Assembly: GCF_011386835.1 (NCBI RefSeq)
Contig: NC_088800.1
Location: 38,750,001-38,814,000 of the forward strand
Source of the DNA: Chrysemys picta bellii
Lineage: Eukaryota
DNA: 64,000 nucleotides
Direction of reading: 5' to 3'
Position 1 is the stretch's first letter. Each line of letters begins with the position of its first letter. Shown here piece after piece: positions 1 through 55,000 of this stretch. A program made the position numbers.

Positions 1-3000
1 GATGCTAGGGATCAGTAGGGGCTCCTGGCTTGCCTGAATCCTTACCTGCAAGGTGCTGCCACATTCATGGAGCCCAGCTAAAAAGATCACCGTGTTCTCC
101 ACAGCATTAAGGGACGTGTACTGGCAGGCAGCTGGGCCAAGGCTCAGGTCAGCAGCTTTGATCAGTCGCCCCGTCCCAAACAGATCCCTGTGCACAGTGA
201 TCACCAGCTGAGCCGCCTCACACTGCAGCATGACAGGCTGCAGTGGGGACACAGCCCTGGACTGGGAAGCATCAGCCCGAGCCCAGGGGTAGGGCTGGGC
301 AAGAGAAGGCACATGGGCATTTCTGTGAGGGGGCTCAGCCCTGGGGGTGGGTCTCCAGATGGCAGAGTCTCTCCTAGAGAAATCCCAGGGATTGTAACCA
401 GTCACCCCACTGACCACCCAGCACAGGAGAGCAAAGCCCAGGCTGCTTCTATATCCCATCCTGCCTGCCTGCAGCAAACCCAGCATGGAGAGAAACTCCT
501 GCTCTGGGCCCTTTATACCCTGCAGCTAAAGGCAGCCCACAGCTGCCCCAGGTAATTAACATGCTCCTCTAATCTCCAGACAGCTGGGGCCCAATCACAC
601 ATGCTGCTCACACCCTGGAGCAAGGAAACAGGAGGACCAATGGGAATCTGCCCCACCTGTTGGTCAGTTCATCAGCTGCAGTTTGGGAAATTCCTGCTCT
701 GTTTCATTCAATGGAAGGCTAAGGGTGGGCTCCACCACAAAGGGACCCAGGCCCCTCAATCCCAGATTTAGGCCTGTAAATCCTGGGTTTGACTCCACTG
801 TGATCCACAAACTACACAGTGAACTTCGTAGGTGCCTAAATTCACTCAGCAGCACCTAAGTTTTTACAGTATAAAGTTCCTTAGGTGCCTGTGTTTCAGC
901 CTCTGGGCACGTGCACAGCTGCCTCCCTCTAGGAGTCCAGACACCTATCTCCCACCTAAGCCCAGAGTGATCCATGAGCCAGGGGAAGTTAGTCGTTTGG
1001 CTGCCTAAGTTGCATGTTGGCCCCAATCCACTGGGTGTGCTGCCTGCTGGCTTCGGCCCCACTCACAATTCCACTAGAGCAGAACATGGTGTCCACCTCA
1101 GAGCTTTTAGCCCAGTGGTTAGAGCATTTACCTGGAATGTGGGAGACCCAGGTTTGATTCCCCCTCTCTTCTGTGGGGGAGAGAAAGGATATGAACAGGG
1201 GTATCCCATCTCTCAGAAGAATGCTTGAACCACTGAGCTAGGGGGCATTCTGATGCTGGGCTTCCTCCTGCTCTCCCATTCAAGCTGTACTGTTGTGGAT
1301 AAATAATGAAAGAGGGACCAGACACCAGGGCTGGCTCTAACTTTTTTGCTGCCCCAAGCAGCAAAAAAAAGCGCCCCCACGCCAAGCGCTGCGCCGCTGG
1401 AGCCCGTCCCCCCTCGCCGAGCGCCGTGCCGCTGGAGCCCTGCCCTGAGCGCCCCGCGCCGCGCCACCGGAGCGCCCGCCCCACGGAATGCCGCGCCGCG
1501 CTGCCCCCCGCCACCCCAAGATTGGCCGCCCCTTACCAGGTGCCGCCCCAAGTATGTGCTTGGTTGCCTGGTGCCTGGAGCCAGCCCTGGCTCCCACCTC
1601 CCACTGGACTACAGCAGCATTCCCAGTCACTTGCTCTCTCAGTCTGGCCCAACGACTGTTCCACTGTGGATAAGTGGAAATTTGTGTCCTCTCTAATATC
1701 CACATAACTAGCCAGATGAGTTCCAAAACTGTAGTTCTTATTCCAGGGTTGGGGTGGAGTTTGCGGGGTTGAGTTGTTTTCCCCAATGTGTTCCCCACAT
1801 CAGCCCCCATTTCTCCCCTCCCCCAGAATGGTTTGTTTTTCAAAGCCAAGAGAAGGCCTGGGTGACCTGTGCTCGCCTTGTTTCCCAAGAAGGGGGATCC
1901 CCGCAACCTTAGGAATTGGCATCCCATCTCGCTCCTCAGCACAGACTAGAAAGTCGTAGCGAAGGCCATCTCACTGTGGCTGGGGTTCCATGCTGGTGGA
2001 TCTGGTCCATCCTGACCAGACATACACCGTCCTGAGCTGGACCATCCTCGATAACCTGTACTTGGTCCAGGACCTCTTGGAGCTGGAGCGTAGGGATGGT
2101 CTGTCATTCGACCTCCTGTTTCTAGACCAGGAGAAGGTGTTCGACCGGATGGACCACAGGTATCTCCTGGGCACTCTGCGAGCCTTCGGTTTCGGGCCCC
2201 AGTTTGTGGGGTTTCTTCAGGTGCTGTACGCTTCCTCGGAGTGTCTGGTCAAGCTCAACTGGACCCTGACTGAGCCGGTCAGCTTCAGGCGAGGGGTGCG
2301 CCAGGGGTGTCCACTGTCGGGTCAGCTGTATGCCCTGGTGATCGAGCTCTTCCTTTGTCTGCTCCACCGGAAGTTGAAGGGGTTGGTGCAGCGAGAGCCA
2401 GAGTTGCGGCTGATCCTATTGGCATACGCCGACAACGTGCTCCTCGCAGTCCAGGACCCGGGCAACCTGGTGCAGGTGGAGGTTTGCCAGGCCATCTACT
2501 TGGCAGCCTCCTCTGCCCGGGTCAACTGAGTCAAGAGCTCTGGTCTAGTGGTTGGGGACAGGTGGCAGGCAAGCTCCGCCCCACCTGCGCTTCAGGCCAT
2601 CCGGTAGGGCACGGATTCGCTGCTCTATCTCAGCGTTTACCTTTCTGCCACGCATCCGTCTCCGCTGGAGAACTGGCAAGGTTTAGAGGGCAGAGTATTG
2701 GAGCGGCTGCAGAGGTGGATGGAACTACTCCAAGGGAAGGCACTGGTATTGAACCAACTAGTACTGTCCATGCTCTGGCACTGGCTCAACACCCTGGTCC
2801 CGGCCCTGAGTTTCCTGGCCAACCTCCGGAAGCTGGTTCTGGAGTTCTTTTGGCCAGGACTGCACTGGGTCTTTGCATAGGTTCTCCACCTTCCCCTGAA
2901 GGAGGGAGGACAGGGCCTAAAGTCCTCAGGTCCACATCTTCCGCCTCTAGGCCCTGCAGAGGCTCCTTTATGGTGCAGGTAGTCTGGGGTGGAGCATACT

Positions 3001-52000: not shown

Positions 52001-55000
52001 TGGATAGCCATCCACAGGTGCCAACTCTGGGGGTGCTCCAGGGCTGGATCACCCATAAAAAAAGTGGGTGCTCAGCACCCACTAGCAGCCCCTCCCCCTG
52101 ATCAACTCCTGCCTGTCCCTCCAGCACCTTCTGTCCACCAGTGGGCCCCAGCAATCAGCTCCTCCCCTCCCAGCACCTCCCACAAGCAGGTGCCTCTTGC
52201 ATGCTGCTGAACACTGGGGTACAGTGAGGGTGGGGCATGCTCAGGGACAGGGGAAGGGGTAGAGGCCAAGGTAGAGCAGGAGGTCAAGCACCTGCCAGCA
52301 AATCAAAGACAGCACCTTTGTAGCTATCTGTCTTGGATGGTTTAGACCAGTGATTTTCAGCCTTCTCATTTGTAGGCCCTTAAATTTTTAGTGGAGGTGT
52401 GGATCCCTTTCAGCATCATCTGCAGACCCCCAGGGGTCCATGGATCATGTGTCTAAACCAATTTTCAACCTAACTCCTGCACCTTGGTAGGAGTTTAGAC
52501 TAGATGACCCTTGCAGTCCCTTCTAACCCCATGGCTCTATGCACTGGCTATCTCAGCTTGTCTCCTTCCGCACTTGCCCATAGAACAGAAGACCCCTCCC
52601 TCACCCACTAGGAAATCACCACTGACCAGATGAGACATTGTGTAGTTTTATTTTGTGTTAGACAAAAGGTGCCAGTCACACAACAGTTCCAGCAATGGCA
52701 CAGCTGTGGTTTTTGTATATGAAGCAGATGGCCAGAATCATGGAGGCCAAAGCTATGGCAGCTGCCACCAAGGTCAGTCCCAGCTCCAGCCCAGGATTCT
52801 CCTCTGCACCTACAGGAGAAGGTCAGTAGTTAGAACCAGAATTGGTGCTTAGTGGTGGGGGTGCACCACAGATAAGGGAATGCTGTGGTAGATGAAGTGG
52901 GAAGTTTTGTTTGTGCTGTTCAGCTATTGCTCAGCTTTGTGGACTTGATCCTCCATATTGATTCTGTTGACTAGTGTTTTAGTCAAGACCAACTGGAGTA
53001 AACAGGAATCTGGATTCCAGAGTTGTGGGTTTTAGGCCACCCTTTGGTGCAACCAATCATCTGAGCTGGGGGGGGGCGGGGGCGCACGGGGAAGATGGGC
53101 TGCATTGCTGATAGTCTAGATCAGGGGTCAGCAACCTTTCAGAAGTGATGTGCCGAGTCTTCATTTATTCACCCGAATTTAAGATTTCATGTGCCAGTAA
53201 TACATTAACATTTTTAGAAGCTCTTTCTTTAAGTCTAATAAATAAATTAATGGAGATATCCCATCTCCTAGAACTGGAAGGGACCTTGAAAGGTCATAGA
53301 GTCCAGCCCCCTGCCTTCACTAGCAGGACCAAGTACTGATTTTGCCCCAGATCCCTAAGTGGCCCCCTCAAGGATTGAACTCACAACCCTGGGTTTAGCA
53401 GGCCAATGCTCAAACCACTGAGCTATCCCTCCCCCCCTAATATATAAACTAAACTATTGTTGTATGTTTAAGAAGCTTCATTTAAAATTACATTAAAATG
53501 CAGAGACCCCTAGACTGGTGGCCAGGACCTGGGCAGTGTGAGTGCCACTGAAAAAAAAAAAAAAAAAAAAAAAGACCACCACAGCTTGCGTGCCGCCTTT
53601 GGCACACGTGCCATAGGTTGCCTACCCCGGTCTAGAAATTTCCCTCAGACACTGCAGAGAACTCCCCTGGATTTAGTTTGCTCTTTTGCTTGCCAGCTGC
53701 TGCCCACAGGCTGGATAGCACTAAGACTCGTCTTTGAAAGGGACATTATTCAGGGTTCCCTTGAGGTGGAAGGCATCCCCTCTCCCCTGAAAGGGGGGTA
53801 ACATATGCTCCCAGGGTGCATGCCTGGTTCTTATAACCTAGACAATACCTGGTGCGGCTGCCTTCCCTGCTTCCATTCGATCTTCTACAACACCCCTGGA
53901 TTCTTGATAGGCATCAAGGATGATTAGGGGTCCTACCACAACATCAGCCTCTTCTACCCTCACTGAGAAGTCACCTGTATTGAAGAGAGGAGTTACCAGA
54001 GAACCCATCAACATTACTGCTCTTCTCATTTTAGAAGGAAGACAACCAAAGAACAGTGGGTTTTACTAAGAGAACCATTTCTTTGGGTTCAACCTCCTAT
54101 TAGCTACAAACGATGTACAGCCTACCATGTCTGGAGGCCACATCTCTCTGGAAGTGCCTGCCTGGCCGTCTGTCCAGAGGGCTGCCTCTCCCAGAATGTC
54201 CTCCAAGTAATGCACAATTTCCAGTCTCACAGCACCTGCAGATGTCTCTGGTGCCTTCCACTGGAGACCAGCTGGAACAGAAGAAGGGGCAGGGTCGCTC
54301 ACAGTAAGTCTTGTCCTCTCCATGCTGCTGATCCCACCAGCCCTCAAACCACCACCTCCATGGGGTTCTACTCCAGCTACTCACATGTTGCCTGCTTTGT
54401 TGAAGGAACAAGCCTTGTTCAAGGGATCTGGGGCTTGCTCAGCTGCAGTGACTTTCAGATGGCAGGTGATGTAGACCTGGAGGGGAAGTGGGAAGAGGGG
54501 TTAGGACTATCCCAGGGGACACTAACACCTGCTTAGCTTGGGGGGGGGGGGGAACCCAACTTCAAGCAGAAGTCTGGGAGCTCACCAAGTTCCTGGCATC
54601 TCCTGCAAACCTGAACACATCCACCATGAACTGCAGCGTGTCCTGCCTGGGCCTGGGGAATATGAAGGCTGAGGTGCTGTCATCTGATCTCCCATCCACC
54701 AGGCATCTACACACAAGAACTCTGGTTAGTAAGATCCCCACAGACTCAAGGTAGATTCTAGACTAGAAAGGGCTGCCACCTCTTACCCATTGAAGTCAAT
54801 GACAGCATAGTGGGGAGAGGAGTCCTTGTCTGGGGTCAGGGTGGCCACACAGCTGTCCACAAAGAGCCTCAAAGCCACATGGTTGCCAGTATGGACATCA
54901 GCTTGGATATGCATGACCTCCCCCAGCTGGAATCCATTGGAGGGTCTCTCAGCACTCCAGTCATCTGCAAGACAAGCTCACAGTAAGCAGGACAAACAGG

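What the first reader, a model, noticed from the sequence alone, without database searches (positions are those of the whole stretch)
556..52675. Duplication units are spacer-centred, so paralogs combine different promoter-flank and TM-exon classes
Seen: spacer A-B (556-8400) aligns with spacer B-C (11700-15950), and spacer C-D aligns with D-E (e.g. 19350-19560 vs 33040-33250, 20250-20480 vs 35070-35330, 20770-21290 vs 36720-36800 plus 38105-38410). The last exon of B matches C, and that of D matches E. So B = 5' class 1 / 3' class 1, C = 5' class 2 / 3' class 1, D = 5' class 2 / 3' class 2, E = 5' class 3 / 3' class 2. Inference: unequal crossovers occurred inside the genes, creating chimeras that reshuffle upstream regulation against the C-terminal propeptide and anchor.
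Basis: partly seen in the sequence, partly recalled or inferred. Interest (0 to 1): 0.65.

Follow-up and report, generated by a model that had tools for sequence, protein, structure and literature searches.

The report
Turtle ZP3 egg-coat gene array, mosaic history
The window holds a head-to-tail row of turtle ZP3 egg-coat genes that grew by unequal crossing-over between neighbouring copies and was later patched by gene conversion, a textbook mechanism seen here in a gene family where we found no description of it.

Summary
The window is turtle DNA, not human. It carries four complete ZP3-like genes, B, C, D and E, plus exon 1 of a fifth, A, all on the minus strand and each with nine coding exons.

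- **Spacers:** A-B is collinear with B-C, and C-D with D-E. None of 20 locally shuffled controls per pair gave a match.
- **3' ends:** from intron 7 to the 3'UTR, B pairs with C and D with E at 72 of 73 informative sites.
- **5' flanks:** A pairs with B, and C with D.

This is what unequal crossing-over between neighbouring paralogues predicts. D has C's upstream flank joined to an E-type body. B has A-type flank, exon 1 and start of intron 1 joined to C-type exons 2-9. Divergence is the same on both sides of D's junction (K2P 0.31 and 0.28-0.29).

- Only B and D need be chimeras.
- All five copies keep the same core promoter.
- E's flank is related to the C/D flank out to about -300.
- Gene conversion has since homogenised exons 2-7 of B, C and D.

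Exon 8-9 types are shared across turtle families, so the older event is ancient. The mechanism is ordinary. Any effect on regulation is untested.

The parts
46..486 (-). Gene A, exon 1 only; the rest of the gene lies beyond the window edge. Its exon 1 is closest to an 'A-type' ZP3-like protein of Malaclemys whose C-terminus has no exon-9-like membrane segment.
   Evidence: The exon is open, 441 nt long and followed by a GT donor. The best exon-1 score ratio, 0.92, is to P0010.
487..8445 (.). Spacer A-B (class 1): A's 5' flank plus B's 3' flank. It holds an insertion at 979-4637, absent from spacer B-C, that carries a LINE-type reverse transcriptase ORF.
   Evidence: Collinear with spacer B-C. 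RVT_1 matches 1990-2529.
8446..11651 (-). Gene B, 9 coding exons, 476 codons before the stop. It reads as a chimera: A-like 5' flank, exon 1 and start of intron 1, and C-like from about 30 bases before exon 2 to the 3' flank.
   Evidence: Exon map. ZP-N and ZP-C Pfam matches. A-B similarity in the flank and intron start. B-C similarity over 8072-10470.
10494..11165 (-). Interval within intron 1 of B that must contain the A-type/C-type junction.
   Evidence: B and C share only 80 bases at 72.5% in intron 1. High B-C identity starts at 10470-10493. The first 45 intron bases are A-like.
11652..15986 (.). Spacer B-C (class 1).
15987..19171 (-). Gene C, 9 coding exons, 474 codons before the stop. 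It reads as a parental type: class-2 5' flank and class-1 exons 8-9.
   Evidence: Exons 2, 3 and 6 are identical to Chrysemys protein P0131 (39/39, 34/34, 30/30).
19172..26258 (.). Spacer C-D (class 2). The first ~2.3 kb (19177-21516) is collinear with the D-E spacer. A GIY-YIG (Penelope-like) fragment lies at 22670-23639.
26259..32857 (-). Gene D, 9 coding exons, 485 codons before the stop. It is a mosaic: C-like distal 5' flank; E-like introns 1 and 8, exons 8-9 and 3' flank (intron 7 gave no blast match to any copy); and a B/C-like block spanning exons 2-7.
   Evidence: Exon 9 is 43/43 identical to Chrysemys P0034.
29056..30312 (-). Converted block in D, from about 30 bases before exon 2 to about 9 bases after exon 7. 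The matching stretches are 9246-10493 in B and 16875-18096 in C.
   Evidence: B-D K2P is 0.046 and C-D 0.040, against 0.28-0.31 in D's flanking non-coding DNA. MaxChi places a breakpoint at 29057, P=0.0005.
32417..33002 (-). Interval in D, from about -145 to the end of exon 1, that must contain the older junction between C-type flank and E-type body.
   Evidence: C-D 78% against D-E 69% at -300..-73. D-E homology starts at the first bases of intron 1. Informative sites in exon 1 are mixed.
32858..52675 (.). Spacer D-E (class 2), enlarged by transposon insertions and a GC-rich tandem repeat.
52676..56534 (-). Gene E, 9 coding exons, 486 codons before the stop. It reads as a parental type and is nearly identical to the Chrysemys picta bellii ZP3-like protein P0002.
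   Evidence: P0002 against E: 146 of 148 residues in exon 1, and 43/43 and 44/44 in the exon 8 and exon 9 alignments.
56535..56809 (-). E's proximal 5' flank, homologous to the flanks of the other copies. No homology is detected beyond it.
   Evidence: 68.9% over 312 columns to C's flank.

Best explanation
The window is part of an old head-to-tail array of ZP3-like (zona pellucida / perivitelline-layer) genes in a turtle close to Chrysemys picta. Two rounds of unequal crossing-over between misaligned neighbouring paralogues enlarged it.

**Older round.** An E-type and a C-type gene recombined near the core promoter or exon 1. This made D, which has C's upstream spacer and an E-type body, and it duplicated the class-2 spacer.

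**Younger round.** C and an A-type gene recombined inside intron 1. This made B, which has A-type flank and exon 1 and C-type exons 2-9, and it duplicated the class-1 spacer.

**Gene conversion afterwards.** Conversion repeatedly homogenised the part that encodes the mature protein. Exons 2-7 with their introns are nearly alike in B, C and D, and shorter patches in exons 1-2 involve E. Exons 8-9 encode the C-terminal propeptide with its hydrophobic patch, the membrane anchor and the tail. They stayed type-specific.

**Shown:** the homology pattern, the breakpoints and the conversion signal.
**Inferred:** the order of events, the crossing-over mechanism and any consequence for expression.
For: **Identity of the genes**
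- Pfam ZP-N and ZP-C match 3 of 6 ORF pieces of gene B.
- The best named protein hits are turtle ZP3-like proteins.
- The start of exon 7 matches the solved chicken ZP3 chain 3nk3_A, E=4.5e-06.
- All four complete genes have open exons and AG/GT at all 8 introns. Coding lengths are 1461 (E), 1458 (D), 1425 (C) and 1431 (B), all multiples of three.

**Pattern predicted by unequal crossing-over**
- The spacers are pairwise copies.
- From intron 7 to the 3'UTR, 72 of 73 informative sites support BC|DE.
- At -300..-73 the identities are A-B 90%, C-D 78% and cross-class 74-77%.
- C-D flank homology runs for about 2.3 kb.
- Intron 1 of D matches E (443 columns at 69%, plus 70 at 74%) and not C.
- Intron 1 of B starts A-like: 3 mismatches in 45 bases and a 3-base gap shared against C, D and E. 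It shares only 80 bases at 72.5% with C.
- K2P is 0.314 for the C-D flank, 0.284 for D-E intron 1 and 0.288 for D-E intron 7 to 3' flank.

**Gene conversion**
- K2P in the exon 2-7 block is 0.027 (B-C), 0.046 (B-D) and 0.040 (C-D). The block includes introns 3, 4 and 6, which are 95-99% identical.
- Between exon 2 and exon 7, D equals C and not E at 103 of 118 discriminating sites. Downstream the figure is 45 of 125.
- MaxChi places a breakpoint at D 29057, P=0.0005.
- A run-length permutation test with 10000 permutations gave P=1e-4 (B-D), 2e-4 (C-D), 5e-4 (C-E) and 1.6e-3 (B-E).

**Age**
- In per-exon trees with 24 named reptile proteins, exons 8 and 9 group by type. Exon 8 bootstraps: D-type 274/300, E-type 268/300, class 1 224/300. 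Exon 9: E-type 296/300, class 1 299/300, D-type 216/300.
- Exon 1 groups partly by taxon: the three Emydura paralogues cluster in 158/300 replicates.
Against: - Exon 1 itself is uninformative about either junction. Its 22 biallelic informative sites split DE 6, AB 3, CE 3, AD 3, BE 2, BC 1, AC 1 (19 in the exon, 3 in its flanks).
- Most of A is outside the window. B's A-like ancestry therefore rests on the 5' flank, 45 bases of intron 1, and one short exon-1 residue motif. That motif occurs in window A and B and in only 1 of the 25 named turtle proteins checked, an A-type Malaclemys protein.
- K2P for the younger event is uneven: 0.150 for the A-B spacer against 0.053-0.086 for B-C 3' non-coding DNA.
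- In one ~90-base piece shared by three of the four spacers (A-B, C-D, D-E), C-D against D-E (73%) is no closer than either is to A-B (78-79%). Class 2 is thus barely younger than the class 1/class 2 split.
- The exon-1 and exon-7 species-wise groupings have weak bootstraps (113-158 of 300 and 107-123 of 300).
- No flanking DNA of other turtles and no expression data could be examined.
Confidence: 0.75

Rival explanations
1. The genes arose by whole-gene duplications. The pairing of spacers was imposed later by long gene-conversion tracts that started in one gene, crossed the spacer and ended in the next gene. No chimeric gene was ever formed by crossing-over.
For: Gene conversion clearly acts in this array. 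Homologous genes on both sides of a spacer could anchor a long tract.
Against: It needs tracts of 4-7 kb across DNA without homology, twice. It also needs separate events to create the copies. Divergence in the spacer pairs equals that of the adjoining gene parts (0.31 against 0.28-0.29), as expected from a single duplication event.
Confidence: 0.1
2. The 5' classes are not different ancestries. They reflect insertions and deletions that interrupt an otherwise common flank, so the genes are simple whole-unit duplicates and only the exon 8-9 classes are real.
For: Old collinear pieces are shared between classes:
- A-B 6672-6764, C-D 20737-20828 and D-E 36687-36776
- B-C 13323-13732, C-D 19998-20164 and D-E 34930-35309

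Transposon insertions explain most of the size differences.
Against: - Identity inside class 1 is far higher than between classes (-300..-73: A-B 90% against 74-77%).
- C-D share about 2.3 kb that A-B and B-C mostly lack.
- B groups with A upstream and with C downstream whatever the indels.
- The two sides of intron 1 of B have different relatives.
Confidence: 0.07
3. The mosaic is an assembly artefact: tandem copies, or two haplotypes, were mis-joined.
For: Tandem arrays are prone to mis-assembly. One public Chelonia model (P0001, 1792 aa) looks like fused neighbouring genes.
Against: The copies differ by 3-30%, and there are no N runs. Independent annotations of several turtle genomes contain the same types:
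- E matches P0002.
- D's exon 9 matches P0034 at 43/43.
- C's exons 2, 3 and 6 match P0131 fully.

D-, E- and class-1-type tails recur in sea turtles, tortoises and a side-necked turtle.
Confidence: 0.05

Closest known systems
Hybrid genes made by unequal crossing-over in tandem arrays (haemoglobin Lepore/anti-Lepore, red-green opsin hybrids). Recalled from general knowledge, not from a call.
   Same: The paralogues lie head to tail. The new gene combines the 5' end of one neighbour with the 3' end of the other. The intervening spacer is duplicated, and the junction lies in shared sequence.
   Different: Here the events are ancient and fixed, not polymorphic disease alleles. One junction only swaps the distal flank. 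Later conversion has overwritten much of the gene body.
Concerted evolution of tandem gene families by gene conversion. PMC8830517 (passages read) mentions unequal recombination and gene conversion for repeats in fertilisation proteins.
   Same: Introns are homogenised together with exons. Tract ends are sharp. Cross-species trees group partly by species.
   Different: Conversion stops at the exon 7/intron 7 border. The part encoding the mature egg-coat protein is homogenised, while the propeptide and anchor exons keep lineages older than the turtle families sampled.
Tandem ZP3 amplification in teleosts (PMC13704971; abstract and passages read).
   Same: ZP3-like genes are multiplied by tandem duplication.
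   Different: That paper reports 20 to 22 copies of ZP3-like genes in channel catfish and says turtles have far fewer ZP genes. 'Gene conversion' and 'unequal' occur 0 times in its main text.

Membership tests
ZP3 (ZPC) egg-coat glycoprotein genes | ZP module (ZP-N plus ZP-C domains) | tested here: met
   PF23344 ZP-N matched at E=1.1e-08 and 8.3e-06. PF00100 ZP-C matched at E=8.2e-09. These matches are on exon-bearing ORF pieces of gene B.
ZP3 (ZPC) egg-coat glycoprotein genes | Sequence relatives are named ZP3, including one with a solved structure | tested here: met
   202 proteins had E<=0.001 among 1524 candidates. The best are turtle, crocodilian and bird ZP3 or ZP3-like proteins. Chicken ZP3 chain 3nk3_A was the only PDB match to exon 7. 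Exon 8 found no PDB match.
ZP3 (ZPC) egg-coat glycoprotein genes | Precursor layout: furin-type site, then a propeptide with a hydrophobic patch, a membrane segment and a short tail (layout from passages of PMC7155028) | tested here: inconclusive
   There is an RxxR motif in the last 10-14 residues of exon 7 in all four genes. Exon 8 has a 9-residue hydrophobic window (KD 2.3-3.0). Exon 9 has a 19-residue window (KD 2.1-2.7) followed by 9-18 residues. This is motif-level evidence only; no cleavage data exist.
Tandem array expanded by unequal crossing-over | 5' and 3' parts of a middle gene have different nearest relatives, in the predicted orientation, between two copies of one spacer | tested here: met
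   Met for D, between E and C, and for B, between C and A.
Tandem array expanded by unequal crossing-over | Equal divergence on the two sides of the junction | tested here: met
   Older event: K2P 0.314 against 0.284 and 0.288. The younger event fits only roughly: 0.150 against 0.053-0.086.
Tandem array expanded by unequal crossing-over | The same junctions are present in orthologous arrays of related species | not testable with these tools
   No collection of turtle genomic DNA was available; genome contigs holds only bacteria and archaea. Only proteins could be compared.
Interlocus gene conversion | A tract of much higher identity that includes introns and is bounded by old divergence | tested here: met
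   The D block at 29056-30312 has K2P 0.040-0.046, against 0.28-0.31 in the flanks. Introns 3, 4 and 6 are 95-99% identical among B, C and D.
Interlocus gene conversion | Significant clustering of shared polymorphic sites | tested here: met
   My own GENECONV-like run test gave P<=0.0016 for 5 of 6 pairs; D-E gave P=0.64. MaxChi gave P=0.0005. The published programs GENECONV and RDP were not available.

The most novel reading that the evidence does not exclude
Conversion homogenises the part of these ZP3 paralogues that ends up in the egg coat. At least three propeptide/anchor/tail types have nevertheless stayed distinct since before the sampled turtle families split. A tail-less A type also exists. 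This would mean the discarded C-terminal part is under type-specific selection, for example by directing each copy to a different secretion or assembly route or a different producing cell type. The exon 7/intron 7 border would then be a selected barrier to conversion. The array would be a natural domain-swap series for asking what the ZP3 propeptide and tail do.
Probability: 0.2. Interest if true: 0.6.

Novelty: new member of a known kind. Interest (0 to 1): 0.33.

Why it matters
The finding shows how an egg-coat gene family can keep one mature protein sequence in several copies while keeping different upstream flanks and different C-terminal processing and anchoring parts.

According to the review passages read (PMC7155028), the membrane segment and tail of ZP precursors are needed for incorporation into the growing egg coat. 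Paralogues that differ mainly there are therefore useful natural variants.

For annotation, the practical lesson is that one tree per gene is misleading here. Orthology must be assigned per segment.

Tried and rejected
- **Human origin:** rejected. The best hits are turtle proteins.
- **Alignment limits:** the five-sequence MAFFT alignment is unreliable inside introns 1 and 8 and in the distal flanks. Those parts were judged from pairwise blastn instead. In the pairwise table, cells with coverage of a few percent mean 'no homology', not identity.
- **Relic genes:** a search for relic ZP3 exons in the spacers and upstream of E, using nine reptile ZP3 proteins, gave no hit at E<0.05 outside the mapped exons.
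- **RNA genes:** Rfam at gathering thresholds found nothing, and the tRNA scan found nothing.
- **Structure search:** exon 8 against solved structures gave no match at E<=10.
- **Exon 1 junctions:** exon 1 could not place either junction because its informative sites are mixed.
- **B and C orthologues:** I tried to find these among the cluster members of P0003. Several species have two class-1 proteins, but the diagnostic residues are mosaic, so no assignment was made.
- **Literature:** five full-text searches and passages from PMC8830517, PMC13361971, PMC3434135 and PMC13704971 gave no description of a turtle ZP3 array or of conversion among ZP3 paralogues. Subscription papers and supplements were not visible.
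- **Spliced model:** the joined spliced model was never built or searched. Exons were translated, searched and aligned one at a time.

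
Full report
**What the window is.** The sequence has a CpG observed/expected ratio of 0.22 and no N, as in a vertebrate. ORFs on the minus strand match Pfam ZP-N and ZP-C. A protein search with the exon-1 ORF of one copy returned 202 proteins at E<=0.001 among 1524 candidates. The best are ZP3-like proteins of turtles, followed by crocodilians, tuatara, birds and lizards. One Chrysemys picta bellii protein (P0002, 486 aa) matches gene E at 146 of 148 residues in exon 1, and at 43/43 and 44/44 in the exon 8 and exon 9 alignments. 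The window is therefore turtle DNA from Chrysemys or a very close relative. It is not human.

**Gene maps.** Five ZP3-like genes lie head to tail on the minus strand.

| Gene | Coding span | Codons before stop |
|---|---|---|
| A | exon 1 only, 46-486 | not applicable |
| B | 8446-11651 | 476 |
| C | 15987-19171 | 474 |
| D | 26259-32857 | 485 |
| E | 52676-56534 | 486 |

- Each complete gene has nine coding exons, all open.
- AG and GT flank all eight introns in every complete gene.
- Coding lengths are 1431 (B), 1425 (C), 1458 (D) and 1461 (E) nt.
- The exons were translated, searched and aligned one at a time. The joined spliced model was deliberately not built or searched.
- No further ZP3 exon relics exist in the window.

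Exon 7 starts with a stretch that matches the solved chicken ZP3 chain 3nk3_A near that chain's C-terminal end. It ends with an RxxR motif. Exon 8 holds a short hydrophobic window, and exon 9 a 19-residue hydrophobic segment plus a tail of 9-18 residues. This is motif-level inference.

- Spacer A-B (487-8445) and spacer B-C (11652-15986) share 10 HSPs. Nine are collinear and one is a local inversion.
- Spacer C-D (19172-26258) and spacer D-E (32858-52675) share a collinear chain. It covers the first ~2.3 kb upstream of C and D and about 90 bases after the stop codons.
- None of 20 locally shuffled controls gave any HSP, for each of four spacer pairs.
- Exon 9 is 94% identical between B and C and 84% between D and E. 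Across classes it is 68-70%. The two classes of exon 9 are still homologous (alignment).

**Formal partition test.** They do not.
- From intron 7 to the 3'UTR, 72 of 73 four-taxon informative sites support BC|DE.
- Upstream of about -235, A pairs with B and C with D. At -300..-73 the identities are A-B 90%, C-D 78% and cross-class 74-77%. C-D homology continues for about 2.3 kb.
- E is homologous to the C/D flank out to roughly 275-300 bases upstream, at 68% identity, and unique beyond. 'Class 3' is thus only partly separate.
- Intron 1 gives a third picture. D matches E (443 columns at 69%, 70 at 74%). B and C share only 80 bases at 72.5%. The first 45 bases of B's intron match A, with 3 mismatches and a 3-base gap shared against C, D and E.

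**Mechanism.** Unequal crossing-over between an upstream gene U and a downstream gene W gives U - spacer - [5' of W joined to 3' of U] - spacer - W.
- Both middle genes fit in orientation and in spacer pairing. D lies between E and C, and B lies between C and A.
- C and E need not be chimeras. Their mixed class labels follow from sitting between two different spacers.
- Divergence agrees across D's junction: K2P 0.314 (C-D flank, 1587 nt), 0.284 (D-E intron 1) and 0.288 (D-E intron 7 to 3' flank).
- For the younger event the values are rougher: 0.150 for the A-B spacer and 0.053-0.086 for B-C 3' non-coding DNA.
- B's junction lies in intron 1 (10494-11165).
- D's junction lies between about -145 and the end of exon 1 (32417-33002). 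Exon 1 itself cannot narrow this because its informative sites are mixed.

A block runs from about 30 bases before exon 2 to about 9 bases after exon 7.
- B, C and D are nearly alike there, introns included. K2P is 0.027 (B-C), 0.046 (B-D) and 0.040 (C-D), seven-fold below D's flanks.
- In that block D equals C and not E at 103 of 118 discriminating sites, against 45 of 125 downstream. MaxChi puts the switch at 29057, P=0.0005.
- A run-length permutation test in the manner of GENECONV gave P<=0.0016 for five of six pairs, and P=0.64 for D-E.
- Within the block the pattern is patchy. D-specific changes cluster in exon 2 to exon 3 and in intron 5. E-specific changes cluster from intron 3 onward. 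This indicates several tracts, and E took part around exon 2.

**Age, from other species.** Only proteins were available.
- Per-exon neighbour-joining trees used 24 named reptile proteins plus the window's exon peptides, added as separate fragments.
- They group exons 8 and 9 by type. Class 1 includes a side-necked turtle. D-type and E-type each include sea turtles and tortoises or pond turtles.
- Exon 8 bootstraps: D-type 274/300, E-type 268/300, class 1 224/300. Exon 9: E-type 296/300, class 1 299/300, D-type 216/300.
- Exon 1 and exon 7 group partly by taxon, with weak support (107-158 of 300). D-type exon 1 forms its own clade (228/300).
- The class structure at the 3' end is therefore ancient, and the 5' and middle parts have been homogenised repeatedly in several lineages.
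- Several species have two class-1 proteins in one 90% cluster. I could not assign them to B or C.

**Regulation.** All five copies keep TATAAA at -31/-32 from the first ATG and an invariant CAGGTGG. The latter lies at -171 to -174, or at -140 in E because of a deletion. An E-box about 200 bases upstream is what I recall for mammalian zona genes (FIGLA); this is recalled, not tested. What the crossovers reshuffled is the distal flank, plus exon 1 for B. Whether that changes expression is unknown.

**Comparison and novelty.**
- The mechanism is the classical one for tandem families: hybrid globin and opsin genes, and concerted evolution. This comparison is recalled.
- Five full-text searches and passages from four papers gave no account of a turtle ZP3 array or of conversion among ZP3 paralogues. 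Subscription journals and supplements were not visible.
- One teleost paper reports tandem ZP3 amplification and says turtles have far fewer ZP genes than teleosts (PMC13704971, passages).
- I rate the finding a new member of a known kind, with modest interest.
- The more interesting open reading is that conversion is kept out of exons 8-9 by selection on type-specific propeptide and anchor functions.

**Limits.**
- No genomic DNA of other turtles and no transcript data were available. The published recombination programs were also unavailable.
- The closed collections (metagenome contigs, viral contigs) were not used. Genome contigs holds only prokaryotes, so the flank-level orthology test stayed unchecked.

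Noticed in passing
window 43932-50587 (+): An LTR-type retroelement lies in spacer D-E. Direct repeats at 43932-44277 and 50242-50587 are 94.6% identical. A gag-like ORF carries SCAN-like and zinc-knuckle matches. A 902-aa pol ORF has integrase before reverse transcriptase and RNase H. I recall that order for Gmr1-like Ty3/gypsy elements. The coding region is split into at least three ORFs. Breaks were not counted against an intact relative.
   Followed up: partly
window 22670-23639 (-) and 44246-45210 (+): Two 971-base copies, 96.6% identical and in opposite orientation, each carry a GIY-YIG endonuclease ORF of the Penelope-like kind. One copy lies just inside the left repeat of the LTR element. 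Related 60-330-base pieces recur at 21091-21238, 39531-39713, 40786-40995 and 42523-43150.
   Followed up: partly
window 979-4637 and 33378-34869: Insertions are present in one spacer of a pair but absent from its partner. Each carries a LINE-type reverse transcriptase fragment (RVT_1 at 1990-2529 on the + strand and 33868-34350 on the - strand). They account for part of the length difference between paired spacers.
   Followed up: partly
window 5011-5336 vs 12904-13230: A 326-base segment is inverted between the two class-1 spacers at 93.9% identity, with collinear matches on both sides.
   Followed up: no
window 35517-36386 and 60869-61084: A GC-rich tandem repeat array, with periods of 80-177, lies in spacer D-E and gives long spurious ORFs on both strands. 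A separate 79-base tandem repeat lies upstream of E.
   Followed up: no
window 512-517, 11677-11682, 19197-19202, 32884-32889, 56560-56565: TATAAA sits only 31-32 bases before the first ATG of every copy. Transcription may therefore start at or after that ATG, and the in-frame ATG at codon 10 may be the real start. Public models of relatives use both starts.
   Followed up: partly
window 6672-6768, 20737-20828, 36687-36776: A ~90-base piece is conserved at 73-79% and collinear in three of the four spacers, across both classes. It could be a conserved non-coding element or simply the best-preserved remnant of the ancestral spacer.
   Followed up: no
window 16621-16740; 17112-17203; 54126-54271: There are copy-specific in-frame changes. 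Gene C lacks 6 bases in exon 8 and has three private residue changes in exon 6. Gene E has 3 extra bases in exon 7.
   Followed up: no
protein hits (P0100, P0001): A 449-aa protein with ZP-N and ZP-C domains is labelled as a hypothetical protein of Lysinibacillus fusiformis. This is probably vertebrate contamination in a bacterial assembly. A 1792-aa Chelonia mydas 'ZP3' model carries an extra SEA-domain match (PF01390) and looks like neighbouring genes fused by annotation.
   Followed up: no
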